A DNA stretch of 56,021 nucleotides from Streptosporangiaceae bacterium (GTDB lineage Bacteria > Actinomycetota > Actinomycetes > Streptosporangiales > JBOHCT01). The position numbers and the translations under genes are program-made. A model generated the notes under the pieces. That model saw nothing but the letters and a program-made list of their open reading frames with translations. It did not search any database and had not been told where the DNA came from. The stretch is taken from contig JBOHCT010000002.1 in NCBI GenBank assembly GCA_050699055.1, forward strand, positions 1 to 56,021, in the 5' to 3' direction. Shown here piece by piece: positions 17,988 through 44,220 of the stretch. The first letter of the stretch is position 1. Every line of letters starts with the position of its first letter.

Positions 17988-17997
17988 ACGGTTCCCG

Positions 17998-24683: not shown

Positions 24684-25808
24684 TCAACCCATGCCGTCAC
24701 CACTCTCGTGGATGACGACACCGCGGATGTTCTTCCCCTCCCGCATGTCGCGATAGCCGTCGTTGACCTGGTCGAGCCGGTACCGCCGGGTAATCAGCTC
24801 ATCGAGCTTGAGGTCACCGGATCGGTACAGACCCAGAAGCCTCGGGATGTCGTAGAGCGGGTTCGCCGCGCCGAAAAGAGCGCCCTGGACCCGCTTCTGC
24901 CAACCGGTCAGGGGACCGCCCGGCAGCTGTACGACCATCTCGCCCCGACTGCCGACCCCGGTGACGGTCACCTGGCTCGTCTTGCCGACGATGTCCACCC
25001 CGCGCCGCACGACCTCCGCGTTCATCTCGCCCACGGTCAGGATCGCGTGATCGGCGAGCTGTCCACGGGTGAGCTCGACGACCAGCTCGTGAGCCTCGTC
25101 GGGGTCGGACGTGGCGTGCGTGGCACCGAACTTCTGCGCCGACTCCAGCTTGAACGCCACCGGATCGACCGCGACGATGTTCTTCGCGCCCGCGTAGCTC
25201 GCTCCCTGAACGGCGTTGATGCCGACGCCCCCGACACCGAAGACCACGACGGTGTCGCCGGGCCGCACGCCCGCCGCGTAGACGGCGGAGCCCCACCCCG
25301 TCGTCACGCCGCAGCCGACCAGGGCAGCCACGTCGAACGGGATGTCCTCGCCCACCTTCACGCACGACCACTCGGAGAGCACGGCATACCGCGAGAACGT
25401 CCCGAGCACACAGAAGGCACCCAGATCCCGATCGCCTTCATGGAAGCGGTACGTGCCGTCGGTCAGACAGCCCACGGCGGCGTTCAGCCCCGCGTCGCAC
25501 ATGTTCTGATGGCCGGTCGAGCAGTAACGGCAGGTCCCGCAGACAGGGACGAACGAGCACACGATGTGGTCGCCCACCCCCACCCGCGTGACACCCGGAC
25601 CGACCGCCTCGACAACGCCGGCACCCTCGTGCCCGCCGACCATGGGCAGCCGGACCGGCGCGGCCCCGGTCCGCGCGTGCTCGTCGGAGTGGCACAGGCC
25701 GGCGGCCGCGAACCGAACGAGCACCTCCCGTGCCTTCGGCGGATCGAGGGACAGCTCGGTCACGTCCCACTGGCCAGGTCGGTGCAGGACCGCCGCCCGA
25801 GTCTTCAC
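24684..25808 (-). CDS. Zn-dependent alcohol dehydrogenase (class III / NDMA-dependent-ADH-like), paralog 1
   Basis: GTG start at 25808 overlaps the P3 stop (GTGA). 'GLCHSDEH', 'GHEGAGVVEAVG', 'CGTCRYCSTGHQNMC', 'VFGVGGVGINAVQGA' and the C-terminal 'GYRDMREGKNIRGVVIH'. Confidence 0.9.
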   Translation of the reverse strand: MKTRAAVLHRPGQWDVTELSLDPPKAREVLVRFAAAGLCHSDEHARTGAAPVRLPMVGGHEGAGVVEAVGPGVTRVGVGDHIVCSFVPVCGTCRYCSTGHQNMCDAGLNAAVGCLTDGTYRFHEGDRDLGAFCVLGTFSRYAVLSEWSCVKVGEDIPFDVAALVGCGVTTGWGSAVYAAGVRPGDTVVVFGVGGVGINAVQGASYAGAKNIVAVDPVAFKLESAQKFGATHATSDPDEAHELVVELTRGQLADHAILTVGEMNAEVVRRGVDIVGKTSQVTVTGVGSRGEMVVQLPGGPLTGWQKRVQGALFGAANPLYDIPRLLGLYRSGDLKLDELITRRYRLDQVNDGYRDMREGKNIRGVVIHESGDGMG

Positions 25809-26929
25809 GTCGCCACTCCCCAATCTGCGGATCCCGCCGCGGTTCCCGCTGCTCGGGCCGCGGCACGGTCGCTCGAGACCTCCTCCACGGGGATCGCGGT
25901 CCCCGACCACTCACCGAAGACCCGCACGACCATCGAGATGGCCGCGTTCTTGGCCCCGGCGACGACGATCGGCACGTGCCGGGGCGAGGGGAGAATGGGC
26001 GAGAAATCGTCCGCGTCGACGTCCGACGGCTCGCCGGCGTCCGTACCGGTCGCTTTCTTGTGCTGTGCGGCCTTACCGGCCCGTTCGAGGGCGGTGAAGG
26101 TGCATCCGCAGTGCTCCATGAACCAGGCCTGGACGTCGGCCTTGGCGTACCCGGCGCCGGCGAGAAGCTGGGCATGCTCGGGGCTCAGGACCACCGCACA
26201 CGAGGTGTCCCGGAAGATCAGCGCGCCCGTGCGCGAGATCGTGTCAGCGAAGTCCCACAGAACCTGCTCGGCGTCGTGGGTGTGCCGGTTGTCGACGAAC
26301 TCACAGGTACGGGTCAGCGTCGCCGACACCGCGCTCGAGCCCGACGGCTGCCCCCCGTCCACGCACAGCGGCTCCCACGGACTCTCCTCCTCGTTCTCGG
26401 CGACACAGACCGACCAACGCCCAGGGAGACCCTGTGTGGCCTGCTCGAAGACGTGCGGACGGACGCCGAAGGCGTTGCGGACGATGAGCCCGACGGCGCG
26501 GGCGACGGTGGCGTTCGCCCGGAACCCCGGCCCGAACACCCCGCCGCGGCTGTTGAACCCGAGGCCGGCGCGGATCGGACCGTTCACCACGATGAGCGGC
26601 GACGGGCCGCTGGTACTCTGCCACCCACCTCCCTCCGCCGCCCGCTCGCGCATCAGCGCCTCGAACGCGGCCAACACCACAGGGAAGTACTCGGGCCGAC
26701 AGCCCGCCATCGCGGCGTTGATGGCCGCCAGCTCGACCGTGCACTCGCCGTTCAGATGTGTGAGACGGCCGATGACCTCGTCGGGAGCGCGGCTCGTGCG
26801 ACCCAGGAAGCGGTCGACGAGCGGCTGTGAGGCGGGGGCGAGCGGCAGCCCGTCCGACCAGTCCTGCTCGTAGCAGTATTCGATCACTCGCTGGGCGGCG
26901 TCCGGGTCGAGGTCGGAAGCCTCCGCCAT
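25805..26929 (-). CDS. Uncharacterised conserved protein, paralog P3 of 3
   Basis: Start ATG 26929 overlaps the CGSC gene stop (ATGA). 'SDGLPLAPAS', 'MAGCRPEYFPVVLAA', 'PLIVVNGPIR', 'RANATVARAVGL' and 'ENEEESPWEPLCV'. The ORF-track N-terminal extension is rejected. Confidence 0.8.
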   Translation of the reverse strand: MAEASDLDPDAAQRVIEYCYEQDWSDGLPLAPASQPLVDRFLGRTSRAPDEVIGRLTHLNGECTVELAAINAAMAGCRPEYFPVVLAAFEALMRERAAEGGGWQSTSGPSPLIVVNGPIRAGLGFNSRGGVFGPGFRANATVARAVGLIVRNAFGVRPHVFEQATQGLPGRWSVCVAENEEESPWEPLCVDGGQPSGSSAVSATLTRTCEFVDNRHTHDAEQVLWDFADTISRTGALIFRDTSCAVVLSPEHAQLLAGAGYAKADVQAWFMEHCGCTFTALERAGKAAQHKKATGTDAGEPSDVDADDFSPILPSPRHVPIVVAGAKNAAISMVVRVFGEWSGTAIPVEEVSSDRAAARAAGTAAGSADWGVAT

Positions 26930-27477
26930 CAGGCAGCCCCTCGCTGCTCCACGGCGACCATGAGGGATACGACGTCGGGCAGGGCACGCCCGGCACGCTC
27001 GCGCACCTCGTCCGGGGTGAGCACGGCGACCGGGTGTGGCGTCGTAGCGTAGCGGTAGCCTGGCGCGCCCTGGACGCGGGCCATCGCGTCGCTGGTCGCC
27101 GTGAAGGCATCGCTGCAGACCACCGCGCTGGGGATGCCGCGCCCTTCGAAGAGCAGACCGTCCGCGACCGCCGCCGCGCTGCACGACCCGCAGTCGCCCA
27201 CACCCGTGACGACGACATCACACTGGCCAGCCATCTCCTCGACGACCTCGTCGGGGGCGGGGGCGGTGATCGGGCCCGTCTTCCTCCGGGTCACCACGTC
27301 CGCGGCGCCCTCGCGGTCCACCAGCAGCCGACCCAGCTCCTCGAGAAAGAGATCGGCGTTCCGTTTGGTGTTGACCAGCAGCCCCACCGTCGCTCCGCGA
27401 AGGTCCGGGCGCCGCGACGCCTGCACCGCCCGCTTGCTGCTGACCTTTCCCGTTGGATCCAGAACCGCGTTCGCCAT
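26929..27477 (-). CDS. CGSC-motif protein (Cys paralog of the UGSC protein)
   Basis: Start ATG 27477 lies 9 nt after a perfect AAGGAG. '...RGATVGLLVNTKRNADLFLEELG...CDVVVTGVGDCGSCSAAAV...GRGIPSAVVCSDAF'. Confidence 0.8.
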   Translation of the reverse strand: MANAVLDPTGKVSSKRAVQASRRPDLRGATVGLLVNTKRNADLFLEELGRLLVDREGAADVVTRRKTGPITAPAPDEVVEEMAGQCDVVVTGVGDCGSCSAAAVADGLLFEGRGIPSAVVCSDAFTATSDAMARVQGAPGYRYATTPHPVAVLTPDEVRERAGRALPDVVSLMVAVEQRGAA

Positions 27478-27530
27478 CTCGGGCTTCTCCTTACCTAGAG
27501 CGCCCATCCGTACGGACGATCCGTTGGACC

Positions 27531-27567
27531 CCCACCAGTATTCGACTTTAATATGACGACCGTCAAG
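27531..27567 (-). promoter_or_regulatory. Conserved promoter/operator-like element, copy a (CCCACCAGTATTCGAC-N8-GACGACCGTCAAG on the + strand)
   Basis: Near-identical to 34666-34702 with identical spacing. Read on the minus strand it gives TTGACG-N18-AATACT upstream of the CGSC operon. Confidence 0.55.
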
Positions 27568-27613
27568 ACTTGAGACCTGGTTTTAGGGGCTGCGGGGTAC
27601 TCGTTTCAAGCTC

Positions 27614-28540
27614 TCAGCTCACCTGGGGAAGCACCTCGCGGCCGAGCAGGCGGATGTGCTCCAGGTCGGCGACGTCGTAGATGTGAAAGTAGACGGTGTC
27701 GATGCCCAGTGAGGAAAGCTTGCCGAGGTGGCCGACCACGTCCTCTGGCACGCCGACCACGCCCTGGCGCAGGAGCCTGGCGGCTGGTTCCCCGACCGCG
27801 GTGGCGCGCCGCTCGGCCTCGGCCCGTGTCGCGCCAAGGCAGACCGGGAGCAGGGTCGACAGTCTGACGGTGGCGGGGTCCCGCCCGACCTCCGCGCAGA
27901 TACGAAGGAAGCCCGCGATGTGCTTCCCCCGATCTTCGCCGAAGGCCGCGTTGAACTCATCGGCGAACCGGGCGGCGAGCGTGGGTGTCCGACGCGGGCC
28001 CGAGCCCCCGATGACCAGCGGCGGGCGGGGCTGCTGGGCGGGCCTCGGGAAGTTGGCGCACCCGTCGATGCGGTAGTGCTCGCCCTCGAAGGTGAAACGC
28101 TCGCCCGGAGACGTCGCCCACAGCCCCGAGATGACGGCCAGCTGCTCCTCGAGGCGGTCGAAGCGCTCACCCGTGGGCGGAAAGGGCATGCCGAAGGACT
28201 CGTGCTCGCGCGCATACCAGCCCGCGCCGATGCCGAGCTCGACGCGTCCGCCGCTCATCGCGTCGACTGTGGCGACGCTCACGGCGAGCGGGCCGGGGTG
28301 CCGGAAGGTCGCGGCGGTCACCAAGGTGCCGAGCCGCACCCGTGTGGTCTCTCTCGCCAGCCCGGCGAGCGTCGTCCAGGAGTCGGTCGGCAGGTAGGAG
28401 GTGTCCGCGGCGTCGACACCAAGATAGTGGTCGGAGCGGAAGAAGGCGTCGAAGCCGGCCTCCTCGGTGGCCCGCGCCAGGGCCAGGACCTGCTCGTAGG
28501 TCGCCCCGTGGCGCGGCTCCATCAGTACCCGTAGCCTCAT
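27614..28540 (-). CDS. LLM-class F420-dependent oxidoreductase (luciferase-like)
   Basis: Start ATG 28540, 'MRLRVLMEPRHGATYEQVLALARATEEAGFDAFFRSDHY' and 'GRVELGIGAGW'. Confidence 0.85.
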   Translation of the reverse strand: MRLRVLMEPRHGATYEQVLALARATEEAGFDAFFRSDHYLGVDAADTSYLPTDSWTTLAGLARETTRVRLGTLVTAATFRHPGPLAVSVATVDAMSGGRVELGIGAGWYAREHESFGMPFPPTGERFDRLEEQLAVISGLWATSPGERFTFEGEHYRIDGCANFPRPAQQPRPPLVIGGSGPRRTPTLAARFADEFNAAFGEDRGKHIAGFLRICAEVGRDPATVRLSTLLPVCLGATRAEAERRATAVGEPAARLLRQGVVGVPEDVVGHLGKLSSLGIDTVYFHIYDVADLEHIRLLGREVLPQVS

Positions 28541-28606
28541 GCTGGACTCCTCGTCGTCGCTGGCGGGTAGCCGGTCGCCGACCGCCATGCCGTTACTCGG
28601 TGGCGC

Positions 28607-29713
28607 TTAGCGCGCGCTGGTGGTGGCCCGGGTGGGCTCGTGGTCTTCCTCCTGCCCCGCAGGAAAATGACACGCCACGGCATGGTCGTCCCCGAGGATG
28701 CGCAGCGGCGGCTCCTCGACCGCGCAGCGCTCCTGCGCGCGGGGGCAACGGGTGCGAAATCGGCACCCGCTCGGCGGGTCGATCGGGGAGGGGGGCTCCC
28801 CACTGATCGCCCCCTCCGCTCTCGCCCTCGACGAGGTGGGGTCGGGATCGGGGATGGAGGCGAGGAGCGCCAGCGTGTAGGGGTGCAGGGGTCCCCGGTA
28901 GAGAGACTCGGCGGGACCGATCTCGCAGAGCTTGCCGAGGTACATGACCGCGACCCGGTCGCTCACCTGCTTGACGAGCGTGAGGTCGTGCGCGATGAAC
29001 AGGTAGGCGAGACCGAGTTCGGTACGTAGCTCCTCGAAGAGGTTGAGCACCTGCGCCTGGATCAGGACGTCGAGCGACGAGACCGGCTCGTCGCAGACGA
29101 TGAGGTCCGGGCCGAGGGTGAGCGCGCGGGCGATGGCGACCCGTTGGCACTGGCCACCCGAGAGCGCCCGAGGCCGGCGGCTGCCGTAGGTGCGCGGGTC
29201 GAGGCCGACGAGGTCGAGCACCGTGTCCACCCGGCGCCGGCGTTCCGCCCTGCTACCCACCTTGTAGGCGACAAGCGGCTCCTCGACGATCTGCGACACC
29301 CGCCACTTCGGGTTGAGCGAACCGAACGGGTCCTGAAAGACCATCTGCATGTGACGACGGGCCTCGAGGAGCTGACGCCGGCCCAGTTTGACGAGGTCCT
29401 TTCCACGGAAGAACACCTCACCCGACTTCGGCTTCGGAGCCTGCAACAACGACCTCGCCAGCGTCGACTTCCCGGAGCCCGTCTCGCCGACGACGCCCAC
29501 GGTCTCGCCGGACCGTACGTCGAAGGACACGTCGGAGACGGCCTGCACGACGCCGCCCTTGACGCCTCCGCTGCCGCGGACGACGAACTCCTGCACGACG
29601 TGCCGGGCTTCGAGCAAGGCCTCGCCCCGCAGCGCCGGGTGAGCGGCGGCGCCTCGCTCTTTGTCGGGCTCTCTCTCGCCCCGCTCGTTCTCGTTGGACG
29701 CTCTAGGCTTCAC
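28607..29713 (-). CDS. Peptide/nickel ABC transporter ATP-binding protein (DppF/OppF-like)
   Basis: Walker A 'GETGSGKST', signature 'LSGGQCQR', Walker B 'LIVCDEPVSSLD', and an oligopeptide C-terminal domain with 'PPSGCRFRTRCP'. The GTG start overlaps the dppD-like stop. Confidence 0.85.
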   Translation of the reverse strand: MKPRASNENERGEREPDKERGAAAHPALRGEALLEARHVVQEFVVRGSGGVKGGVVQAVSDVSFDVRSGETVGVVGETGSGKSTLARSLLQAPKPKSGEVFFRGKDLVKLGRRQLLEARRHMQMVFQDPFGSLNPKWRVSQIVEEPLVAYKVGSRAERRRRVDTVLDLVGLDPRTYGSRRPRALSGGQCQRVAIARALTLGPDLIVCDEPVSSLDVLIQAQVLNLFEELRTELGLAYLFIAHDLTLVKQVSDRVAVMYLGKLCEIGPAESLYRGPLHPYTLALLASIPDPDPTSSRARAEGAISGEPPSPIDPPSGCRFRTRCPRAQERCAVEEPPLRILGDDHAVACHFPAGQEEDHEPTRATTSAR

Positions 29714-30858
29714 TGCGGCTCTCCGTCTTCGCAGGGGTACCAGCAAGCCCACCAGTGGGCTGGTTCGTGCTCTTCGAAGGGCGGGGACGCCTCCTGACAG
29801 GTGTCGCGTGCGCTCGGGCAGCGGGGGGCGAACGGGCAGCCGACCGCGAGCGTCGTGAGGTCGGGAGGCCGACCGTGGACGACGGGGAGGGGGGAATGCG
29901 GGGGCCGCTCGATCCGTGGAACCGCTTCGAGGAGGACCTTGGTATAGGGCATTCGGACGTGCGCGAAGAGCTGCCGTGTCGGCGCGCGTTCCACGGCCCG
30001 CCCGGCGTACATCACGACGATCTCGTCGGCGTAGCTGGCCGCCAGCCCGAGGTCGTGACTGATCATGATGAGACCCATGCCGAGTCGCCCCTGAAGCTCG
30101 AGGAGCAGGTCCATGATCTGCGCCTGCGTCGTGACGTCAAGCGCGGTGGTGGCTTCGTCGGCGATGAGCAGCCGCGGACGTGAGGCGAGCGCGATCGCGA
30201 TCACCACGCGCTGCCGCATTCCTCCGGAGAGCTGATGGGGGTACTCAGCGAACCGCTGCTCGGGGGCGGGCAAGCGAACGAGCCGGAGCAGCTCGACGGC
30301 CCGCTCCTGTGCCGCTCGCCTGCCAGCGGCAGCAGCGGTACCAGCGGTACCAGCGGCACCAGCGGCACCAGCGGCACCAGCGGCACCAGCGGCACCAGCG
30401 GCACCAGCGGCACCAGCGGCACCAGCGGCACCAGCGGCACCAGCGGCACCGGTGGCACTGTGCGCGCGGATCGCCTCGGTGATCTGTGCCCCGACCCGCA
30501 TGGTCGGGTTGAGTGAGCGGGCAGGGTCCTGAAACACCATCGCGAGGTCGGCTCCGCGGTGCCGCCGCATCTCCTTGTCGGACAGCCCGAGCAGCTCCTC
30601 GTCATCGAAGCGGGCGGAACCGGTGACCGAAGCGGTCTCCGGCAGCAGCCCCATCAAGGCGCGGGCGCCCACGGTCTTCCCCGACCCCGACTCGCCGACG
30701 ATCGCGAGTGTCTGCCCGTCGAGGAGCTCGTAGCTGAGCCCGTTCACGGCCCACACCTGCCGGTCACGCAGGCGGAAGCGGACCCAGAGGTCACGAACCT
30801 TGAGCAGCGGCGCCGTGGGTGAGCCTGAGTAACCCCGACCCTCATCCGACAACGACAT
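29710..30858 (-). CDS. Peptide/nickel ABC transporter ATP-binding protein (DppD/OppD-like) with an internal (GAA)11(GTA)2 repeat insertion
   Basis: 'GESGSGKTV', 'LSGGMRQR', '[12 protein letters not shown]' and 'GCPFAPRCP'. Start is ATG 30858 (GGGGAG Shine-Dalgarno) or 30886. Confidence 0.85.
30334..30450. repeat. 13 x 9-bp perfect/near-perfect tandem repeat (AGCGGYACC) inside the dppD-like CDS
   Basis: Counted directly: 2 x agcggtacc followed by 11 x agcggcacc. In frame, encoding Gly-Ala-Ala / Gly-Thr-Ala triplets. Confidence 0.95.
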
Positions 30859-30920
30859 GGCACGGCTCCCCGACATCCCGAGGGTCGACTCGGCCGAAGG
30901 TTTCCGCGAACGGTTGATAC

Positions 30921-31814
30921 TCACTGGACGTTCCACCGCGCACGCAGGCCGTCCCCGAGAAGGTTGAACGCGACGACGGCGACGAAAAGGAAGGCGCTGG
31001 GGAAGAGCACCAGCCTCGGACTGGCAGAGAGGCTCTGCTGCCCCTGGTAGATCATGTTGCCCCAACTCGGGTGCGGAGGTGGGATACCGAGGCCGAGAAA
31101 GCTGAGCGCGCCTTCGAGAACGATGATGATGCCCATCCCGAGCAGGCCGAACGTCAAGAGCTGGGGAGCGATGTTGGGGGCGATGTGGCGGAAAAGGACG
31201 CGCCGAGTCCTCGTTCCCGACAGCTTCGCCGCCACCATGAACGTCTGCTCGCGCAGCCGGAGCGTGGCGGCCCGGGAGACGCGGGCGTTCGCCGGCACGC
31301 TGAAGAATACGAGAGCGAAGATCGTGTGACTCTTGCTCGGCCCGAGGCCCTGGGCGATCGCCAGCGCGAGGACGAGGGAGGGGAAGGCGATCAGCACGTC
31401 GAAGACCCGCATGATGATCGGGTCGACCTTCCCTCCCCAGTAGGCGGCGAAGGCCCCGAGGGAGCCCCCGATCAGGAGGCCGATCACTTGCACGGCGAGC
31501 GCGATCTCGAGCGAGGCACGGCCGCCGTACAGCAGGCGCGACCATATGTCGTTGCCGACCGGGCCGGTCCCGAGAAAATGCCCCGGTGACAGTGGCGGGA
31601 GGTTGGCGTCGATGACGTTTCCGCCGATCGGCTTCGGTACGGGGTAGACGACCGGCCAGAGGAAGCACGCCCCGAAGACCAGGACCAGGACACCCGCTGG
31701 AACCGCGGTCTCCAGCGACCGCGTCCATCCGCGCGCGCGGCGCGCCGGCCTCGCGGCCGCCGCCTCCATCTCGAGACTCGACGGTATGCGGGCGTCAGGC
31801 GGAACGCTGGCCAT
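30921..31814 (-). CDS. Peptide ABC transporter permease (DppC/OppC-like)
   Basis: 'HFLGTGPVGNDIWSRLLYGGRASL' and 'AAKLSGTRTRRVLFRHIAPNI'. Confidence 0.85.
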   Translation of the reverse strand: MASVPPDARIPSSLEMEAAAARPARRARGWTRSLETAVPAGVLVLVFGACFLWPVVYPVPKPIGGNVIDANLPPLSPGHFLGTGPVGNDIWSRLLYGGRASLEIALAVQVIGLLIGGSLGAFAAYWGGKVDPIIMRVFDVLIAFPSLVLALAIAQGLGPSKSHTIFALVFFSVPANARVSRAATLRLREQTFMVAAKLSGTRTRRVLFRHIAPNIAPQLLTFGLLGMGIIIVLEGALSFLGLGIPPPHPSWGNMIYQGQQSLSASPRLVLFPSAFLFVAVVAFNLLGDGLRARWNVQ

Positions 31815-32838
31815 AGCGAATCCTTGGATCCAAGACCGCGTACAGGATATCGGTGAGGAGGTTCGCGAGGACGACGATAAGGGCGAAGACGAGCACGATC
31901 GCCTCGACCACGACGACGTCGCGGTTGTCGATCGCCTGCAGGAGCTCCTGACCGATCCCGGGAAGCGCGAAGATCTGTTCGATGATGACCGTCGCTCCGA
32001 TCAGCGTGCCGAGGTTCAGCCCGACGACGGTCAAGAGCCCGAAGAGCGAGTTGCGCAGCGCGTGGCGTACGAGTACACGCCACGGGCCGATTCCCTTCGC
32101 CTTCGCCGTCACCACGTAGTCCTCGCCCTGCATCTGCTCGAGGATGTCGCCGCGCAGCAGGCGAGTGTAGAAACAGAACAGCGGGAAACCGATCGCGACC
32201 GCTGGCAGCGTGAGAGACCGGATGTTCTCCGCGAGACCCTCGCTCGGAGGCACGAAGCCGATCGCCGGCAGGATCGGCAGGTAAACCGCGAACACGATGA
32301 CGAGGACGAGCGCGAGCACGTAGTTCGCGATCGACAAGCCCATCGTGCTGACAGCCATGCTCAGCCGGTCCGCCAGGCCGCCGGGCTTGCGCGCCGCCAC
32401 CACGGCGACGGGCACGGTGAAAGCGACGGAAACGACGAAAGCGTAGAGCACCAGCTCGAATGTCACGGGCAGGCGCTGGCCCAGGATGGTCGACACCGAC
32501 TGACCGCTCGACAAGGAGGAACCGAGGTCGCCTGTCACCACGCCGTGGAGCCAGTCTCCGTAACGCACCAGGAACGGCTTGTTCAGACCGAGCTTGATCG
32601 CCAGCTGGTGCACTTGTTGCGGGGTGGCGTTGGCGCCGAGGAGCTGCCTGGCGGCGTTACCCGGCATCAGGTTCATCACCGTGAACGTGAGGAGCGTGAC
32701 ACCCCAGAGAACCGGGACCGCCGCCGCGAGACGTCTCCCGATGAGGCGGAGGCTCGGCGAGCGGGCCGCCCTCGCCACCCCGCGGATCAGCCGCTGGTCG
32801 CCGCGCAGGGCCGCGGGGGCGGGGGCGGACGTGCTCAT
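31795..32838 (-). CDS. Peptide ABC transporter permease (DppB/OppB-like)
   Basis: 'LLTFTVMNLMPGNAA', 'YVVTAKAKGIGPWRVLVRHALRNSL' and 'DILYAVLDPRIRY'. Confidence 0.85.
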   Translation of the reverse strand: MSTSAPAPAALRGDQRLIRGVARAARSPSLRLIGRRLAAAVPVLWGVTLLTFTVMNLMPGNAARQLLGANATPQQVHQLAIKLGLNKPFLVRYGDWLHGVVTGDLGSSLSSGQSVSTILGQRLPVTFELVLYAFVVSVAFTVPVAVVAARKPGGLADRLSMAVSTMGLSIANYVLALVLVIVFAVYLPILPAIGFVPPSEGLAENIRSLTLPAVAIGFPLFCFYTRLLRGDILEQMQGEDYVVTAKAKGIGPWRVLVRHALRNSLFGLLTVVGLNLGTLIGATVIIEQIFALPGIGQELLQAIDNRDVVVVEAIVLVFALIVVLANLLTDILYAVLDPRIRYGQRSA

Positions 32839-32872
32839 CCCCGCCCCCGCCGCGGCCCCGACTTCGTATCGC

Positions 32873-34498
32873 TCACCTGGCTTCCTTCGGGATCCACACG
32901 CTGTCCCACATGACGGTGGGGTTCACGACGACCGCCGGGATCTTCGTCGTGAGCCCGGGACCGTGCGCCCCCTTGGTCACGACGTTGGCGGGGGCGAAGG
33001 CGAACAGGAACGGCGCGTAGGCGTGGTCGCTGATGTACTTGGCCGCCTGCGCGTACAGCTTGCCCCGCTTGTCCTTGTCCAGCGTCGCCGCGGCCCGCTG
33101 GAGGAGCTTGTCGAGCTTCGGGTCATGGATACCGCTGAACGGCGAGCTCGAGGAGAAGCGGAAGCCCACGCCGACGCCGGCCGCCGGATCCCAGGAGCCA
33201 GCGGTCTGCAGGCTCGCCTCCCAGTTGCCCTGAAACTCCTTGATGAGCTGCGCGAGGTCGTAGGAGTGGATGGTGGTCTTGATCCCCGCCTTGGACCACT
33301 GGCTCTGCAGAACCTTGTCGACCTGCTCGGCGATATAGTTCTTGATCGTGAAGAGATCCACCTGCAACCCGCCGAGCCGCTTGACGATCTGCTTCGCCTT
33401 GGCGAGGTCGTAGGTCCGGTACCCGGGCACCTTCGGCTTGAAGAACAGCCCGCCGGGCCCGGTGAACGACTGGGTCACCGGGTACAGGCCGTTGAACAGG
33501 TGGGTGCGGATCGCCTCGGTGTTCGTCGCGTAGTAGATCGCCTCCCGGGCCCGCTTGTTGTCGAACGGCGGGGCCTTGGTGTTGAGCTGGATGACATACG
33601 GCGACGTGGGCGGCTCCATCGTCACCGTCAGCCGGTCGTTCTTCTGGGCCTGCTGGATCAGCGGGGTGGTGTTCATGCCCTCGTAGGCTTGGGCTTGGCC
33701 GGCCAGCAGCGCCTGGTAGGCGGGCTGGTCACCGCCGATGGACTTGAACGTGAGCTTGTCGAGATAGGGGTGGCCCTTCTTCCAGTAGCCGTCGTAGCGC
33801 TTCAGCACGAGCTGCGAGCTCAACGTGTCGCTGACCACCTCGAAGGGGCCGGCACCCACCGGCTTGATCTTGAACTTCTTCTCCCCCATCTTCGCGAGCG
33901 CGGCCGGGGACGCGATCCAGTTCGCGTTCGAGTCGATGAACGCGTGGATGACTGCCGCGAACGGCCGCTTGAAGTGCAGTACGACCGTGTGGTCGTCGGG
34001 TGTGGTGATGCCCTGCGAGGCGAGCGGCGGCCACAGCCGCTTGGGGCTGCAGGTGCACGGGGACTTCAGGTCACGTTTGAAGTTCCACGCCACCGCCTTG
34101 GCATTGAACGCGGTGCCGTCCTGGAACTTCACGCCCTTACGGAGGGAGATGCTGACGGTCTTGCCGCCGTCGGAGAACTTGTAGCCGGTCGCGAGGTCGG
34201 GAACGATCTTGCCTCCCTCGCCGAGCTGGAACAGCTGACCGTAGATGGCGCTCATGTAGCTCTGGTTCGCGGCGCCGTTCGTGTTCGTGGCGGGATCGAG
34301 ACCGGTGGGCCATGCGCCCGCGTATCCGGACCCCTCGAGGACTGTTATCTCGCCGCCGCGCTGTGGTCCGCTCGTCGCGTTGTTCGAGCCGCCGCTCCCG
34401 CTCGTCTTCGCGGCGCCCCCACCGCACGCGGCAAGAAGAACCGACGACACCACGAGAAGGAAGAGCATGGCCATGAGCGGCCTCGCCCGATGCCTCAT
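32873..34498 (-). CDS. ABC transporter substrate-binding lipoprotein, family 5 (peptide/nickel type)
   Basis: Start ATG 34498 with a GGAGGA Shine-Dalgarno. 'MRHRARPLMAMLFLLVVSSVLLAACGG' is a lipobox. The ORF-track upstream extension is rejected. Confidence 0.85.
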   Translation of the reverse strand: MRHRARPLMAMLFLLVVSSVLLAACGGGAAKTSGSGGSNNATSGPQRGGEITVLEGSGYAGAWPTGLDPATNTNGAANQSYMSAIYGQLFQLGEGGKIVPDLATGYKFSDGGKTVSISLRKGVKFQDGTAFNAKAVAWNFKRDLKSPCTCSPKRLWPPLASQGITTPDDHTVVLHFKRPFAAVIHAFIDSNANWIASPAALAKMGEKKFKIKPVGAGPFEVVSDTLSSQLVLKRYDGYWKKGHPYLDKLTFKSIGGDQPAYQALLAGQAQAYEGMNTTPLIQQAQKNDRLTVTMEPPTSPYVIQLNTKAPPFDNKRAREAIYYATNTEAIRTHLFNGLYPVTQSFTGPGGLFFKPKVPGYRTYDLAKAKQIVKRLGGLQVDLFTIKNYIAEQVDKVLQSQWSKAGIKTTIHSYDLAQLIKEFQGNWEASLQTAGSWDPAAGVGVGFRFSSSSPFSGIHDPKLDKLLQRAAATLDKDKRGKLYAQAAKYISDHAYAPFLFAFAPANVVTKGAHGPGLTTKIPAVVVNPTVMWDSVWIPKEAR

Positions 34499-34665
34499 GG
34501 GAATCCTCCATTCTGCCCCGGGGGTCGTGCCGCCGGGAAGGTATTCGACGCGAATGTCCCGCTCGCATGCCCGCGAGAAGGGCGTGAGACACGGTCGGCC
34601 ACGAGTAACCTCCCGGAGCAGAGGTCTCAACCAAGACTCGTCCCATACCAACGGTCCACCGGACG

Positions 34666-34702
34666 CCCACCAGTATTCGACGCTCCCGTGACGACCGTCA
34701 AG
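34666..34702 (-). promoter_or_regulatory. Conserved promoter/operator-like element, copy b
   Basis: CCCACCAGTATTCGAC-N8-GACGACCGTCAAG. On the minus strand it reads TTGACG-N18-AATACT, about 170 nt upstream of the SBP start. Confidence 0.55.
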
Positions 34703-34822
34703 TATCCAGGCTTGGTTCGTTCGGCCCTTCTCGGACCTGCTTCGGGTCCGGGACCGCGGGCGTGGTGCCGCCGCCATCCGATGCCGGTTCGCGCGGGCCC
34801 GCGCCCCCCTGGTGGAGCGGAC

Positions 34823-39241: not shown

Positions 39242-39426
39242 ACCCTCAACATAGCGGCGCGGCTCCCCCGGGAGCTTGTGGCGGACAACAAAACGGCTGG
39301 GTCCGGAGTTGTTGGACCCATGATGCTCGCGACGGGCCGGTCGCCGCATCGACGGCGCGGACCGAGGGATCCTTGCCGCGTGTGTTTCGGCGTACGGAAT
39401 AAGTGACCGCGACGCCCAATCTTGGC

Positions 39427-39438
39427 GACGACCGTCAA
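39427..39438 (-). promoter_or_regulatory. Core 12-mer GACGACCGTCAA (TTGACGGTCGTC on the minus strand), copy d, upstream of the PucR gene
   Basis: Exact 12-mer shared with 27555-27566, 34690-34701 and 44221-44232. Confidence 0.45.
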
Positions 39439-39600: not shown

Positions 39601-40533
39601 ATGGCGCAGCCGGGTATGACCTCACCCGGGCAGGGCGAGGAGGCGGGACTCGAGACCCGGGGGTCGCGGGCACAGACGCAGCACACGCTGCTGACCATCC
39701 TCGGTGACTATTGGTACGAGCGAGACGAGTACCTCCCCTCCGCGGCCCTCGTCGAACTCCTCGCCGAGTTCGACGTGACGGCGTTCAGCGCCCGCGCCGC
39801 GTTGACCAGGTTGACCCGTCGGGCGCTACTGCGCTGGGAGAAGCGCGGACGGCGTACCTTTTACGCGCTCACCGGCCGGGCGGCCGCCGTCCTTACCGAG
39901 GGCGGCCGCAGGATCGTTTCCTTCGGCGCGCACGATGCTCCTTGGGACGGTCAGTGGGCCTTCGTCGCGTTCTCTGTTCCGGAGTCCCGACGACCGATTC
40001 GACACATACTCAGAGAACGGCTGCGATGGCTCGGGTACGCGCCGCTCTACGACGCCCTGTGGGTCTCCCCACGGGACAGGTCCGCGGAGGTGCGTCGGGT
40101 CCTCGACGACCTCGACCTGCGAACCGCGACCCTGTTCACCGGCTCCATGCATACGGCCTCCCCCACCTGCGGAAGCCCGCTGGTCGCCTGGGATCTCGAG
40201 GAACTACGTCGCTACTACGAGACTTTCGCCGCCGAGTGGCGGCCGTGGGCGGAACGTACCCGCAGCGGCTCTGTCACACCGGCGCAGGCCCTTGTCGCCC
40301 GTACCGAGGTCATGGACAAGTGGCGTACCTTCCCCAGACTGGATCCCGAACTTCCCCGCACGCTCCTGCCCCAGGGGGGGCTCCGGACCGAGGCCAGGCA
40401 ACTGTTCGTCGACATCTACGACGGACTCGGCCCGCTCGCCGAGCTGCGTGTACGTCAGCTTCTCACCCGCTACAACCCGCGACTCGCCGAGCTCGCCACG
40501 CACCATACGACCGGCCAACTGCTGCGGATCTGA
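39601..40533 (+). CDS. PaaX family transcriptional regulator
   Basis: 'LLTILGDYWYERDEYLPSAALVELLAEFDVTAFSARAALTRLTRRALL' and 'LRWLGYAPLYDALWVSP'. Confidence 0.85.
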   Translation: MAQPGMTSPGQGEEAGLETRGSRAQTQHTLLTILGDYWYERDEYLPSAALVELLAEFDVTAFSARAALTRLTRRALLRWEKRGRRTFYALTGRAAAVLTEGGRRIVSFGAHDAPWDGQWAFVAFSVPESRRPIRHILRERLRWLGYAPLYDALWVSPRDRSAEVRRVLDDLDLRTATLFTGSMHTASPTCGSPLVAWDLEELRRYYETFAAEWRPWAERTRSGSVTPAQALVARTEVMDKWRTFPRLDPELPRTLLPQGGLRTEARQLFVDIYDGLGPLAELRVRQLLTRYNPRLAELATHHTTGQLLRI

Positions 40534-40588: not shown

Positions 40589-41248
40589 TTATCGCTGGGG
40601 CGTTCCCAACACAGAGAAATCCAACTCCGCTTCGGTGTTCTTGCGTAGGTCATCCGTTGATACTCCGGGCGCGAGCTCGCGTACCCGCAACGGTCCCCCC
40701 GTCACATCGAGGATTCCACAGTCGGAGTAGACCCGATCGACCACCGACTTCGCGGTGAGCGGCAGGCGGCACTCGCGGGCGATCTTCGGCCGCCCGTCCG
40801 CTGTGACGTGTCTGATCATCACCCAGAGCCGCCGCGCGCCGACCGCGATGTCCGCCGCACCGCCGACTCCGCCGATGCGGCCGGCGATGCTGTCCGACTC
40901 GTTCCGCCAACTCGCGATGTCTCCCGTGGCGCTCACCTCGTAGGCGCCGAGAACAGCGGCGTCGAGACGGCCACCGCGGATCATGGTGAACGACGTGACG
41001 CTGTCGAAGAAGGACCCGCCCGGGCTGATGCTCACCGCGCTCTTACCTGCGTGGACGAGGTCGTCATCGGGCTCGCCCTCCAGCGGCGTCACGCCGAGGA
41101 TGCCGTTCTCGCTCTGCAGCACCACCTCGCGGTCCTTTGGGATTCTCCCGACAATGGCGGTGGGCAGGCCGATGCCGAGGTTGACGTACCAGCCCTCCCG
41201 CAGGTCCATCGCGACCCGTTCCGCCAGCTGCTCCTTACTCCACGGCAT
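40589..41248 (-). CDS. 3-oxoacid CoA-transferase subunit B
   Basis: Start ATG 41248. 'LREGWYVNLGIGLPT' and 'LQSENGILG' are B-subunit signatures. Confidence 0.9.
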   Translation of the reverse strand: MPWSKEQLAERVAMDLREGWYVNLGIGLPTAIVGRIPKDREVVLQSENGILGVTPLEGEPDDDLVHAGKSAVSISPGGSFFDSVTSFTMIRGGRLDAAVLGAYEVSATGDIASWRNESDSIAGRIGGVGGAADIAVGARRLWVMIRHVTADGRPKIARECRLPLTAKSVVDRVYSDCGILDVTGGPLRVRELAPGVSTDDLRKNTEAELDFSVLGTPQR

Positions 41249-41942
41249 CTCGGTCCCCCTGCCCCCGGTGGGCTGCGGAGCCAACCTCGCCCGGGGTCAC
41301 CGCGTCCACGAAGATCCCGGGCAGGTGGACCGACTCCGGATCCATCTCCCCCAGGGCACGTCGCCGCCGCACCTCCGCGATGGTCCAGCGTGCCGCCATG
41401 GCCATGGGGATGTTGAAGTTCCTCGACGCGAGCCGGAAGCGCAGGTTCCCCCATCTATCCGCCTCCTCGGCCCTGACGAGGGCGACGTCGGGCGCGATCG
41501 GCCGTTCGAGGACGAACTCACGCCCGTCGACCATGAGGGACCGCTTGCCCTCCGTGAAGGACGTGCCGACACCGGTCGGGCTGAGGATGCCGCCAAGGCC
41601 CGCGCCCGCGGCCCGCAGCCGCTCGGCGATCATGCCCTGCGGGGTCAGCTCGACCGTGACGTCGCCGGTGAGCAGCACCTCGCCGACCCCATCCGACGTC
41701 GGGCCCACAGGAAAGGAGCAGATGACCTTCCGCACGCATCCGTCGATGATCAGGCCCGCGAGTCCGGTGGTTCCACCGCCCGCGCCGTTGGCGACGACGA
41801 CGAGGTCCCGGAGGCCTCGGTTCCTGAGCCCGTCCGTGAGCGGCACGGGCATGCCGGGCGTGCCGAAACCGCCGATGGCGATGGTCATCCCACTCTCGAC
41901 CACGTCGAGTGCGGGATCCGCCTCCGCGAACTTGTTGATCAC
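41235..41942 (-). CDS. 3-oxoacid CoA-transferase subunit A
   Basis: 'GMTIAIGGFGTPGMPVPL' and 'ELTPQGMIAERLRAAGAGLGG'. Confidence 0.9.
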   Translation of the reverse strand: MINKFAEADPALDVVESGMTIAIGGFGTPGMPVPLTDGLRNRGLRDLVVVANGAGGGTTGLAGLIIDGCVRKVICSFPVGPTSDGVGEVLLTGDVTVELTPQGMIAERLRAAGAGLGGILSPTGVGTSFTEGKRSLMVDGREFVLERPIAPDVALVRAEEADRWGNLRFRLASRNFNIPMAMAARWTIAEVRRRRALGEMDPESVHLPGIFVDAVTPGEVGSAAHRGQGDRDAVE

Positions 41943-41949
41943 GGCGCGG

Positions 41950-42798: not shown

Positions 42799-42887
42799 TC
42801 CCGCACTCCTCGCCGCATTAAGAGATCGTTTGTGAACCGCTCTCCCGGGCCCCTCGCGAACAGGTTCTCGGCACCAAGGGTCCGCAC

Positions 42888-44024: not shown

Positions 44025-44220
44025 CCTTTCGGCCTCGTCACATACCGCCCTTGATGATGACCCTCTTCAGCTGGGTGTACTCCACGATCGAGTCGGCGCT
44101 CGACGATGACGCTGGCGCTGCCTCCTCCCGTCTCGTGCGGCTCACTGGTCGGGCGGGGTAGGGACACGTATCGGGGTCGCTTCACAGCGGGCCATTGGTA
44201 GGTCCCACGACTCGGAAATA

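What the first reader, a model, noticed from the sequence alone, without database searches (positions are those of the whole stretch)
27531..34702. Two near-identical 37-bp elements in front of the xGSC operon and the peptide-type binding-protein gene
The + strand at 27531-27567 reads CCCACCAGTATTCGAC-tttaatat-GACGACCGTCAAG. The + strand at 34666-34702 reads CCCACCAGTATTCGAC-gctcccgt-GACGACCGTCAAG. Both halves are identical and both spacers are 8 nt. Each element lies in a short gap between two minus-strand genes. Read in the gene direction, each gives TTGACG-N18-AATACT, a plausible -35/-10 pair. Conservation extends well beyond the hexamers (TTGACGGTCGTC and GTCGAATACTGGTGGG), which argues for a shared regulator or specialised sigma-factor site rather than chance. 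This links the unknown redox module to the upstream transporter block.
Basis: seen in the sequence. Interest (0 to 1): 0.65.

Follow-up and report, generated by a model that had tools for sequence, protein, structure and literature searches.

The report
Duplicated promoter with PaaX-type repressor site
The two near-identical 37-bp elements are real and are most likely two copies of one promoter carrying a binding site for a PaaX-family repressor, an ordinary kind of regulatory signal that puts a transporter operon and a function-unknown UGSC (seleno)protein operon under one control.

Summary
Both elements read CTTGACGGTCGTC-N8-GTCGAATACTGGTGGG in the gene direction: 29 of 29 block positions are identical, the spacer matches at 2 of 8, and the flanks are 63% identical.

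Each element is the only sigma-70-like site in its intergenic region (TTGACG-N18-AATACT). It is not a dispersed repeat. Public genome and metagenome scans gave one genuine extra copy, in a Streptosporangiales MAG, 61 nt upstream of an ortholog of a gene in this window.

The left block contains the palindrome TGACGGTCGTCA. Exact TGACGNNCGTCA occurs 3 times in the window (0.11 expected), always between genes. One-mismatch copies lie upstream of an ADH/amidohydrolase/CoA-transferase operon and in the divergent region of a PaaX-like regulator gene (39601-40533).

The same palindrome flanks PaaX-family genes on Arthrobacter plasmid pAL1, on Rhodococcus plasmid pDF01, and in diverged form in another Streptosporangiaceae MAG. 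One pAL1 promoter has the same layout (TTGACGTGCGTCA, 18-nt spacer, CATACT).

Best reading: duplicated promoters repressed by the PaaX-like protein and probably induced by a CoA thioester. No transcription or binding data exist. This is a new member of a known kind, of modest interest.

The parts
27531..27567 (-). Element 1 (E1): CTTGACGGTCGTC-atattaaa-GTCGAATACTGGTGGG. It lies 54 nt upstream of the UGSC start codon (27477), in the 136-nt gap after the F420-type LLM gene.
27561..27566 (-). E1 predicted -35 hexamer TTGACG
   Evidence: only sigma-70-like site in 27300-27800
27554..27565 (.). E1 operator core: palindrome TGACGGTCGTCA (TGACG-NN-CGTCA). It overlaps the -35 hexamer and the first part of the spacer.
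27537..27542 (-). E1 predicted -10 hexamer AATACT (18-nt spacer). The inferred transcription start is near 27530.
   Evidence: start site is inference only
34666..34702 (-). Element 2 (E2): CTTGACGGTCGTC-acgggagc-GTCGAATACTGGTGGG. It lies 168 nt upstream of the SBP_bac_5 lipoprotein start (34498), in the 324-nt gap after purU.
34696..34701 (-). E2 predicted -35 hexamer TTGACG
34689..34700 (.). E2 operator core: palindrome TGACGGTCGTCA
34672..34677 (-). E2 predicted -10 hexamer AATACT. The inferred transcription start is near 34665, giving a leader of about 167 nt.
   Evidence: start site is inference only
27508..27582 (-). Extended homologous promoter region, copy 1 (73% identical to copy 2). 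This is the signature of a duplication of the whole promoter region.
   Evidence: (D5)
34643..34717 (-). Extended homologous promoter region, copy 2
   Evidence: (D5)
34541..34549 (-). Third exact copy of GTCGAATAC (context cgcGTCGAATACc, part of ATTCG-CGT-CGAAT), inside the predicted SBP leader. It is a possible auxiliary site; its role is unknown.
   Evidence: the only 3 exact copies in the window are all in these two intergenic regions
44208..44232 (-). E3: TTGACGGTCGTC-tatttccga-GTCG (left block 12/12, palindrome with 1 mismatch, no -10 partner). It lies about 190-200 nt upstream of the ADH/amidohydrolase/CoA-transferase operon.
44398..44409 (.). Perfect palindrome TGACGGCCGTCA, followed on the + strand by N8-GTCG, in the same 566-nt intergenic region as E3
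39426..39438 (-). E4: gTTGACGGTCGTCg (left block 12/12) in the divergent region between the PaaX-like gene (ATG 39601) and the PucR-like gene (start about 39241). It lies 163 nt upstream of the PaaX-like start and is a candidate autoregulatory site.
39601..40533 (+). PaaX-family regulator gene (PaaX, PaaX_M and PaaX_C domains). It is the proposed repressor acting on E1-E4.
   Evidence: 27-32% identical to PaaX-likes that carry the same palindrome beside them
27614..34498 (-). Operon proposed to be driven by E2: SBP_bac_5, two permeases, two Opp-type ATPases and an F420-type luciferase-like oxidoreductase
24684..27477 (-). First genes of the operon proposed to be driven by E1: UGSC family protein (CGSC form), a 374-aa protein of unknown family, and an NDMA-dependent-type Zn alcohol dehydrogenase. 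The minus-strand gene block continues further downstream.
40589..44024 (-). ADH / Amidohydro_2 / two CoA-transferase subunits. This operon lies downstream of E3 and the perfect palindrome, and is a plausible source of a CoA-thioester effector.

Best explanation
E1 and E2 are two copies of one housekeeping-sigma (sigma-70/HrdB-type) promoter, TTGACG-N18-AATACT. An operator for a PaaX-family repressor is built into it: the palindrome TGACGGTCGTCA, which overlaps the -35 hexamer and the start of the spacer. The proposed repressor is the PaaX-like protein encoded 5 kb upstream (39601-40533). When bound it would block RNA polymerase at both promoters. It would also bind the related sites upstream of the ADH/amidohydrolase/CoA-transferase operon (E3 plus a perfect palindrome) and in front of its own gene (E4). 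By analogy with characterised PaaX-type repressors, a CoA thioester made by the pathway would release it, so the transporter-LLM operon and the UGSC operon are switched on together. In evolutionary terms, E1 looks like a copy of the operon's own promoter region (about 75 nt) placed inside an ancestral single operon. Since then only the two functional blocks have been held constant. What is shown: the sequence conservation pattern, the promoter-like geometry, the recurrence of the palindrome in intergenic regions, its association with PaaX-family genes in three other actinobacterial replicons, and the conserved synteny. What is inferred: that transcription starts here, that the PaaX-like protein binds, that it represses, and the nature of the effector.
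For: (1) Selective constraint. Blocks match 29/29, spacer 2/8, flanks 24/38, background 26%. A third copy in a Streptosporangiales MAG (L009) keeps TTGACGGTCGTC-N8-GTCGAATACTG with yet another spacer, 61 nt upstream of a Meth_synt_2 gene that is 72% identical to window gene 45498-46640.
(2) Promoter geometry. It is the only sigma-70-like hit in each intergenic region, in the gene's orientation, with an RBS-bearing leader. Only 11 such hits occur in the whole window.
(3) Operator. Exact TGACGNNCGTCA occurs 3 times in the window against 0.11 expected, all intergenic. TTGACGGTCGTC occurs 4 times, all on the minus strand, intergenic and upstream of minus-strand genes. The bipartite GACGGYCGTS-N8/9-GTCG has 4 matches against 0.08 expected.
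(4) Link to PaaX.
- E4 lies in the PaaX-like gene's own upstream region.
- In Streptosporangiaceae MAG locus L018, TTGACTGTCGTCGACAATAC lies in the divergent region between a PaaX gene and an Amidohydro_2 gene.
- On Rhodococcus sp. p52 pDF01, TTGACGGTCGAC lies 46 nt upstream of a PaaX-family gene, and TTGACGCTCGTC lies between it and the next operon.
- On Arthrobacter sp. Rue61a pAL1, 5 of 6 palindrome hits in 37 kb are intergenic, at the catabolic operon promoters and beside a PaaX-family gene.
- The background rate of 12-mer hits with at most 1 mismatch is 7 per 229 kb.
- PMC3534580 states that the two PaaX-related regulators of pAL1 control quinaldine degradation.
(5) Same layout in pAL1. 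There the sequence is TTGACGTGCGTCA, 18-nt spacer, CATACT, in the same register as E1/E2.
(6) PaaX-type repressors act by occluding RNA polymerase, autoregulate, and are released by a CoA thioester (review PMC9493321).
(7) The rival local regulator PucR has its own, different conserved palindrome, TTGTGG-N4-CCACAA. It lies just upstream of its gene here (39276-39291) and in two orthologs.
Against: No transcript or binding data exist; the only runs holding this DNA are cave-metagenome DNA runs. The published operator consensus of the pAL1 repressor MeqR2 (TGACGNNCGTcA, Niewerth et al. 2013, J Bacteriol 195:1068) is quoted from my memory. The paper could not be retrieved, so I could only verify where the palindromes lie on pAL1. 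The window's PaaX-like protein is only 27-32% identical to the PaaX-likes that have the palindrome nearby. Eight other PaaX-like loci checked (L024-L026, L028-L031, L033) have no such site beside the gene; L030's single 1-mismatch hit lies 2.2 kb from it. The L009 copy has no PaaX gene within the 8 kb held; a TetR gene lies just upstream. The right block (GTCGAATACTG, plus GGTGGG in E1/E2) is conserved well beyond a -10 hexamer, and this model does not explain that. Orthologous UGSC, PucR and Meth_synt_2 loci in relatives at 60-80% protein identity lack the element, so conservation is confined to a narrow lineage.
Confidence: 0.65

Rival explanations
1. The elements are the same duplicated sigma-70-type promoter, but the conserved blocks are bound by a different trans-acting factor encoded outside the window or not recognised here. 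Candidates are a TetR like the one next to the L009 copy, the LysR or PadR of the window, or an activator.
For: L009 has a TetR gene 52 nt upstream of the element and no PaaX gene in the 8 kb held. The PaaX-likes are only 27-32% identical to each other, and most PaaX-like loci checked lack the palindrome. The right block GTCGAATACTG and its third copy at 34541-34549 hint at a second binding specificity.
Against: The palindrome was found beside PaaX-family genes in four independent replicons, including the window, against a low background. No TetR gene is present in the 56-kb window. PucR has its own, different conserved palindrome.
Confidence: 0.2
2. The two blocks are the -35 and -10 elements of a promoter read by a specialised (ECF or other alternative) sigma factor.
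For: Conservation extends beyond the canonical hexamers.
Against: The -35 region is a near-consensus housekeeping TTGACG and lacks the AAC core typical of ECF promoters (established knowledge). The left block occurs on its own, with no right block or -10 at the proper distance, at E3 and E4. It is a dyad-symmetric sequence, as expected for a dimeric regulator. No sigma or anti-sigma gene was found among the window genes scanned.
Confidence: 0.05
3. The elements are a functionless remnant of a recent segmental duplication or gene conversion. The identity reflects youth, not selection.
For: The flanks are also homologous (63%), so a duplication did occur.
Against: The spacer has decayed to background (2/8) and the flanks to 63%, while 29/29 block positions are intact (p about 2e-6). 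The same blocks with a third spacer occur in another genome.
Confidence: 0.03
4. The elements are a mobile-DNA or recombination signal: a REP-like dispersed repeat, transposon end, or tyrosine-recombinase core site (arm - 8-nt spacer - arm) flanking the 7.1-kb transporter block.
For: The 13-8-16 layout superficially resembles lox/FRT-type sites. The two copies are direct repeats bracketing the transporter-LLM block.
Against: The two blocks are not inverted copies of each other, and the two spacers differ at 6 of 8 positions, which would block strand exchange (sequence). No integrase or transposase lies nearby. The source metagenome run holds only the two contigs carrying E1 and E2, the public genome scan found 1 copy elsewhere, and the viral scan found 0.
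Confidence: 0.02
5. The elements act at the RNA level, as a conserved leader, riboswitch or small RNA, rather than as a DNA signal.
For: About 30 nt downstream of the -10 are still 60-70% identical between the two copies and can form small hairpins.
Against: There was no Rfam match at gathering threshold for the window, nor at E<=1 for the E2 region. Folding energies are no better than shuffles (z between -0.6 and +0.8). Most of the conserved blocks lie upstream of any plausible start site. The L009 leader is unrelated.
Confidence: 0.02

Closest known systems
PaaX-type repressor-controlled 'meq' promoters of Arthrobacter sp. Rue61a plasmid pAL1 (MeqR1/MeqR2; Niewerth et al. 2013, quoted from memory; regulators mentioned in PMC3534580)
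   Same: The palindrome TGACGNNCGTCA lies in the intergenic promoter regions of catabolic operons and beside the PaaX-family gene. One pAL1 promoter reads TTGACGTGCGTCA, 18-nt spacer, CATACT, the same register and almost the same hexamers as E1/E2 (TTGACGGTCGTCA, 18-nt spacer, AATACT). Several operators occur per gene cluster. CoA-ligase or CoA-transferase genes lie in the regulated clusters.
   Different: The regulator proteins are only 27-30% identical. The regulated genes differ: an Opp-type transporter, an F420-type LLM and a UGSC module here, against quinaldine/anthranilate catabolism there. E1/E2/L009 share an additional conserved right block, GTCGAATACTG, that pAL1 matches only at ATACT. 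The effector here is unknown.
Escherichia coli PaaX and the Pa, Pz and Px promoters of the phenylacetate catabolon
   Same: The regulator family is the same (PaaX, PaaX_M and PaaX_C domains). Repression works by competing with RNA polymerase, the regulator controls its own promoter, and a CoA thioester is the inducer (PMC9493321).
   Different: The E. coli operator is TGATTC-N27-GAATCA (PMC9493321). No such widely spaced inverted hexamers are present at E1/E2 (checked by eye on the sequences). Here the site is a compact 12-bp palindrome.
PaaX-family loci on Rhodococcus sp. p52 plasmid pDF01 and in a Streptosporangiaceae MAG (GCA_033854715.1)
   Same: TTGACGGTCGAC, TTGACGCTCGTC and TTGACTGTCGTC boxes (11/12 to the left block) lie in the intergenic regions directly flanking the PaaX-family gene. 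They precede a monooxygenase/CoA-ligase operon and an amidohydrolase/CoA-ligase operon.
   Different: The palindrome is less perfect. In the MAG the left- and right-block-like sequences overlap (TTGACTGTCGTCGACAATAC) instead of being separated by 8 nt. Neither has been studied experimentally, to my knowledge.
Internal (secondary) operon promoters created by promoter duplication
   Same: Relatives have SBP...LLM-ADH-UGSC-unknown as one tightly spaced operon. Here a 136-nt gap carrying a copy of the upstream promoter separates LLM from UGSC.
   Different: This is a generic evolutionary pattern, not a defined family. The direction of copying (E2 to E1) is inferred only from the ancestral gene order.

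Membership tests
Sigma-70 / HrdB-type promoter | -35 hexamer close to TTGACA | tested here: met
   TTGACG (5/6) at 27566-27561 and 34701-34696
Sigma-70 / HrdB-type promoter | -10 hexamer with A at position 2 and T at position 6, 16-18 nt after the -35 | tested here: met
   AATACT after an 18-nt spacer in both copies and in L009. It is the only such site in each intergenic region.
Sigma-70 / HrdB-type promoter | Located upstream of a gene, in its orientation, at a plausible leader distance | tested here: met
   54 nt (UGSC), 168 nt (SBP) and 61 nt (L009 Meth_synt_2 gene) before start codons with RBS
Sigma-70 / HrdB-type promoter | Mapped transcription start site | not testable with these tools
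   Only DNA runs of a cave metagenome hold this sequence; there are no RNA runs
Actinobacterial PaaX-type (MeqR-like) operator | 12-bp palindrome TGACGNNCGTCA (consensus recalled from Niewerth et al. 2013, not retrievable here) | tested here: met
   Exact in E1, E2 and at 44398; 1 mismatch in E3, E4 and L009. On pAL1 itself the palindrome lies in the meq promoter regions.
Actinobacterial PaaX-type (MeqR-like) operator | Operator overlaps the core promoter of the regulated operon | tested here: met
   It overlaps the predicted -35 and spacer in E1/E2. A pAL1 promoter has the identical layout. This is a positional argument only.
Actinobacterial PaaX-type (MeqR-like) operator | PaaX-family regulator gene in the same cluster, with a site in its own upstream region | tested here: met
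   PaaX-like gene 39601-40533; E4 lies 163 nt upstream of it
Actinobacterial PaaX-type (MeqR-like) operator | Specific binding by the PaaX-type protein, relieved by a CoA thioester | not testable with these tools
   Needs EMSA or footprinting with purified protein
E. coli-type PaaX box | Inverted hexamers TGATTC ... GAATCA separated by about 27 bp (PMC9493321) | tested here: not met
   No inverted partner of GAATAC 25-29 nt away in E1, E2 or L009 (sequences)
ECF / alternative sigma promoter | -35 with conserved AAC core, short CGT-type -10, and a cognate sigma/anti-sigma gene nearby | tested here: not met
   The -35 is TTGACG. The left block occurs without the right block at E3 and E4. No sigma gene was found among the scanned genes of the window.
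REP-like / dispersed intergenic repeat | Many copies per genome | tested here: not met
   2 copies in the window. Only the two corresponding contigs appear in the source run, though sensitivity is limited. 1 copy in species-representative genomes. 0 genuine copies in metagenomes and viral contigs.
Tyrosine-recombinase core site | Inverted-repeat arms around an identical 6-8 bp overlap region, with a recombinase gene nearby | tested here: not met
   The two blocks are not inverted copies of each other, the spacers match at only 2/8, and no recombinase domain lies in the neighbourhood
Known cis-regulatory RNA (Rfam) | Match to a covariance model, or a significantly stable conserved fold | tested here: not met
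   No hit at gathering threshold for the window, nor at E<=1 for 34450-34830. Fold z-scores range from -0.6 to +0.8.

The most novel reading that the evidence does not exclude
E1-E4 define a lineage-specific regulon controlled by a PaaX-type repressor that senses a CoA thioester. The regulon would join an Opp-type transporter, an F420-type oxidoreductase, the function-unknown UGSC Cys/Sec protein module with its unknown partner proteins, core-MetE-like methyltransferases, and a CoA-transferase/amidohydrolase operon into one previously undescribed catabolic pathway. This would be the first regulatory handle on what UGSC selenoproteins do.
Probability: 0.3. Interest if true: 0.55.

Novelty: new member of a known kind. 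Interest (0 to 1): 0.33.

Why it matters
As a DNA signal it is ordinary: a repressor-controlled promoter, duplicated so that two operons answer to the same regulator.

Its value is practical. UGSC proteins have been known since marine metagenome surveys only as a selenoprotein family of unknown function (e.g. PMC2398784, listed). Here the UGSC module shares a promoter/operator with a transporter-oxidoreductase operon. Its operator also occurs in front of a CoA-transferase operon and a PaaX-like gene.

That gives three testable predictions:
- The module is induced by a (probably aromatic or heterocyclic) acyl-CoA.
- The PaaX-like protein is its repressor.
- The transported substrate feeds this pathway.

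It also extends the compact TGACGNNCGTCA operator type of actinobacterial PaaX-like regulators from Micrococcales and Mycobacteriales plasmids to Streptosporangiales chromosomal DNA.

Tried and rejected
1. Dispersed repeat. The genome-contig scan with TTGACGGTCGTC-N7-9-GTCGAATAC gave one hit. The metagenome scan with a looser pattern gave three hits in low-GC DNA without the conserved flanks. Two lie inside long ORFs; the third, on a 1-kb contig, could not be placed. I judged all three to be chance. The viral scan gave none.

2. Copy number in the source run by read laying. Only the E1 and E2 contigs were found. A bait made from the L009 copy found nothing, not even E1/E2. The method therefore misses copies with different spacers and flanks, and it only excludes a family conserved over the whole 40-nt stretch or more.

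3. Conservation upstream of orthologs. UGSC clusters (L002-L008, L020-L023), PucR orthologs (L013, L014) and Meth_synt_2 orthologs (L015-L019) at 60-80% protein identity lack the element. The only echo is GAGACGGTCGTG-N9-GTCGTGTAAT upstream of the SBP gene in L005. It is suggestive but stands alone.

4. PucR as the regulator. Rejected, because PucR orthologs and the window share a different palindrome, TTGTGG-N4-CCACAA, directly upstream of the gene.

5. E. coli-style PaaX box. Not present.

6. Other motifs recalled from memory: BldD box, LexA SOS box, CsoR/RcnR G-tract sites, MerR-type spacer dyads, LTTR T-N11-A. None fits on inspection.

7. RNA element. No Rfam match and no significant fold.

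8. Intrinsic terminator between LLM and E1. None found.

9. Literature. Searching for the literal motif strings returned only unrelated primer sequences. The MeqR2 paper could not be retrieved.

10. Function of the unknown partner proteins. There were no Pfam, NCBIfam or PDB sequence hits.

Full report
OBSERVATION. The two elements are exactly as described. Read in the direction of the genes (minus strand), both are CTTGACGGTCGTC-N8-GTCGAATACTGGTGGG. No other match exists in the window even with three mismatches, and none appeared in 100 shuffles.

The similarity is wider than 37 nt. A stretch of 75 nt (27508-27582 vs 34643-34717) aligns without gaps at 73%. Within it the two blocks match 29/29, the 8-nt spacer 2/8 and the remaining flanks 24/38 (63%). 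Random registers of the two intergenic regions match at 26%.

So the whole promoter region was duplicated and has since drifted. The spacer has drifted to background level and changed from AT-rich (ATATTAAA) to GC-rich (ACGGGAGC). The two blocks have been held constant (p about 2e-6 under the flank rate).

GENE CONTEXT. The window is about 69% G+C. Its closest protein relatives are Streptosporangiaceae/Streptosporangiales MAGs. The DNA comes from a cave metagenome.

A GC3-based gene call plus Pfam and NCBIfam gives one long minus-strand block:
- a PucR-like regulator
- a homocysteine S-methyltransferase/MTHFR fusion
- PurU
- [E2]
- an SBP_bac_5 lipoprotein, two permeases, two Opp-type ATPases and an F420-type luciferase-like oxidoreductase
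- [E1]
- the UGSC protein (CGSC form), a 374-aa unknown protein, an NDMA-type Zn-ADH and a small protein
- a second UGSC gene and two paralogs of the unknown protein
- MetV/MetF-type MTHFR, a 500-aa unknown protein, a MetE-like protein, MetK, formate-THF ligase and an FTCD_C-type protein

The binding-protein gene starts at ATG 34498, not at the far upstream ATG of the open frame. E2 is therefore 168 nt upstream of it in a 324-nt gap. E1 is 54 nt upstream of the UGSC start in a 136-nt gap.

In relatives at 64-69% UGSC identity, the genes SBP-permeases-ATPases-LLM-ADH-UGSC-unknown form one tightly packed operon. UGSC, the unknown protein and a roughly 74-aa protein travel together. It also suggests that E1 is a copy of the operon's own promoter, inserted into what used to be a single transcription unit.

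PROMOTER-LIKE GEOMETRY. A consensus scan finds exactly one sigma-70-type site in each intergenic region, TTGACG-N18-AATACT, on the gene strand. Only 11 such sites occur on both strands of the 56 kb. Predicted start sites (about 27530 and about 34665) are inference only. No RNA data exist.

NOT A DISPERSED REPEAT, AND CONSERVED ELSEWHERE. A scan of one genome from each of 185,579 species found a single further copy. It lies in a Streptosporangiales MAG (WHSR01000063.1) and reads aTTGACGGTCGTC-gcaggaga-GTCGAATACTGaggtc. It is intergenic and 61 nt upstream of a Meth_synt_2 ('core MetE'-like) gene. That gene is 72% identical to window gene 45498-46640.

This makes three copies with three unrelated spacers and a fixed spacing of 8. 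A looser scan of JGI metagenomes gave three low-GC hits without the flanking conservation. Two of them lie inside long ORFs, and I regard all three as chance. Viral contigs gave none.

In the source run only the two contigs carrying E1 and E2 match. This test is insensitive to copies with other spacers.

THE LEFT BLOCK IS A REGULATOR SITE. The 12-mer TTGACGGTCGTC occurs four times in the window. All four are on the minus strand, between genes, and upstream of minus-strand genes:
- E1
- E2
- E3 (44221-44232), in the 566-nt gap upstream of the ADH/Amidohydro_2/CoA-transferase operon
- E4 (39427-39438), in the divergent region between the PaaX-like gene (ATG 39601) and the PucR-like gene, whose real start is about 39241

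E3 and E4 have no -10 hexamer at the proper distance. The 12-mer is therefore not simply a -35 element.

Its core is the dyad TGACG-GT-CGTCA. Exact TGACGNNCGTCA occurs three times (E1, E2 and a perfect palindrome TGACGGCCGTCA at 44398-44409) against 0.11 expected, always between genes. The bipartite pattern GACGGYCGTS-N8/9-GTCG has four matches against 0.08 expected.

WHICH REGULATOR. PucR is unlikely. Its orthologs (about 60% identity, always followed by the S-methyltransferase/MTHFR gene) carry a different palindrome, TTGTGG-N4-CCACAA, just upstream of the gene. The window has the same thing at 39276-39291.

The PaaX-like protein is the better candidate, on five observations.
- E4 is in its own upstream region. 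E3 and the perfect palindrome precede an operon with CoA-transferases, which could make a CoA-thioester effector.
- In a Streptosporangiaceae MAG (L018), the divergent region between a PaaX gene and an Amidohydro_2/CoA-ligase operon contains TTGACTGTCGTCGACAATAC.
- On Rhodococcus sp. p52 plasmid pDF01, TTGACGGTCGAC lies 46 nt upstream of a PaaX-family gene. TTGACGCTCGTC lies between that gene and a monooxygenase/CoA-ligase operon.
- On Arthrobacter sp. Rue61a plasmid pAL1, five of six palindrome hits in 37 kb are intergenic. They lie in the divergent region between the xanthine-dehydrogenase-type and monooxygenase/meqE operons (two exact copies), beside one PaaX-family gene (ATGACGGTCGTCAT, the very same 12-mer core as E1/E2), and upstream of the CoA-ligase operon.
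- The background frequency of 12-mer hits with at most 1 mismatch in unrelated loci is 7 per 229 kb, mostly in coding DNA.

PMC3534580 states that the two PaaX-related regulators of pAL1 control quinaldine degradation. From memory, Niewerth et al. 2013 (J Bacteriol 195:1068) showed that one of them, MeqR2, binds the palindrome TGACGNNCGTcA and is released by anthraniloyl-CoA. I could not retrieve that paper, so this remains a lead. It is checked here only through the positions of the palindromes on pAL1.

The pAL1 promoter facing the xanthine-dehydrogenase-type operon reads TTGACGTGCGTCA-cataagc-GCGACATACT. That is TTGACG, an 18-nt spacer and CATACT, in the same register as E1/E2.

For E. coli PaaX, the review PMC9493321 reports repression by competition with RNA polymerase, autoregulation, and release by phenylacetyl-CoA. 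Its operator, however, is a different, widely spaced one (TGATTC-N27-GAATCA), which is not present here.

CAVEATS. The PaaX-like proteins compared are only 27-32% identical. Eight other PaaX-like loci have no palindrome beside the gene; L030's single 1-mismatch hit lies 2.2 kb away. The 8 kb held around the L009 copy contains a TetR gene but no PaaX gene.

The right block is conserved far beyond a -10 hexamer in E1, E2 and L009. A third exact GTCGAATAC sits in the SBP leader at 34541-34549. I have no tested explanation for this. It could be a second contact for the same protein or a site for another factor.

REJECTED ALTERNATIVES.
- Alternative sigma factor: there is a housekeeping-type -35, and the left block occurs alone.
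- Neutral duplication remnant: the conservation pattern and L009 argue against it.
- Recombination site or mobile repeat: the two blocks are not inverted copies of each other, the spacers differ, no recombinase lies nearby, and the copy number is low.
- RNA element: there is no Rfam hit and no significant fold.

VERDICT. E1 and E2 are duplicated copies of a sigma-70-type promoter with an embedded PaaX-type operator, part of a small local regulon (E1-E4 plus a perfect palindrome).

Confidence is about 0.65 for this full statement. It is higher, about 0.85, for 'promoter region with a shared trans-factor site'. This is a new member of a known kind of element. Its interest lies mainly in giving an experimental entry point to the unknown UGSC module.

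Noticed in passing
window 23829-24362 (-), TGA at 24075-24077: A second UGSC-family gene has an in-frame TGA exactly at the U of the UGSC motif (TGIGD-U-GSCSACS, aligned with TGVGDCGSCSAAA of the first copy). A hairpin (GUGCGUGCAGUUUGCACGACGC) starts about 13 nt downstream. It is very likely a true selenocysteine-containing paralog with a bacterial SECIS. Gene callers split it into two ORFs (95 and 74 aa in L001).
   Followed up: partly
window 30296-30484 (-), inside the first Opp-type ATPase gene: A 9-nt tandem repeat (about 15-21 copies, CCAGCGGCA on the + strand) encodes a run of Gly-Ala-Ala, (GAA)n, inserted in the ATPase domain. Pfam reports it as a weak collagen-repeat hit. The orthologous ATPases in L002 and L005 show no such Pfam hit.
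   Followed up: partly
window 21577-22632, 22698-23756, 25805-26929 (all -): Three paralogous proteins (351, 352 and 374 aa) have no Pfam, NCBIfam or PDB sequence match. One follows each UGSC gene, and a 356-384-aa protein with no recorded Pfam family follows UGSC in the related loci fetched. This is an uncharacterised partner family of UGSC.
   Followed up: partly
window 13207-21102 and 34823-38054 (-): There is a dense set of one-carbon/methyl-cycle genes around the elements: FTCD_C-type protein, formate-THF ligase, MetK, MetE-like protein, MetF plus MetV-type MTHFR, PurU, and a homocysteine S-methyltransferase/MTHFR fusion. This suggests the pathway releases or consumes methyl groups via tetrahydrofolate.
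   Followed up: no
window 39276-39291; L013 about 9950; L014 about 9960: A palindrome TTGTGG-N4-CCACAA is conserved 35-50 nt upstream of the PucR-like gene here and in two 60%-identical orthologs. In the loci fetched, the homocysteine S-methyltransferase/MTHFR gene directly follows the PucR gene. It is probably the PucR-like regulator's own operator.
   Followed up: partly
window 44231-44242 and 44609-44620: An exact 12-mer repeat (TACGACTTCGTT on the minus strand) occurs 378 nt apart. One copy abuts E3 and the other lies at the 3' end of the intradiol dioxygenase gene. Its significance is unknown.
   Followed up: no
window 24705-25004 vs 42897-43196: The two Zn-alcohol-dehydrogenase genes (one in the UGSC operon, one downstream of E3) share a 300-nt stretch at 81% DNA identity. 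They are recent paralogs placed under the same putative regulon.
   Followed up: no
window 44038-44145 (-): A 35-codon ORF (...SIVEYTQLKRVIIKGGM) preceded by GGGAGGAGG lies just upstream of the ADH gene in the E3 intergenic region. It may be a small protein or a leader peptide.
   Followed up: no
L005 974-1005: Upstream of the SBP gene of a related cluster (UGSC 67% identical) lies GAGACGGTCGTG-acaataggt-GTCGTGTAATG. This may be a diverged homolog of E2, with spacing +1 and a poor -35.
   Followed up: partly
L010 270-296, L011 152-178, L012 9075-9101: The three chance metagenome hits all share two extra bases beyond the search pattern (TGACGGTCGTCA-N7-GTCGAATAG). Two are inside long ORFs of low-GC organisms. 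I treated them as coincidence and did not explain them.
   Followed up: partly
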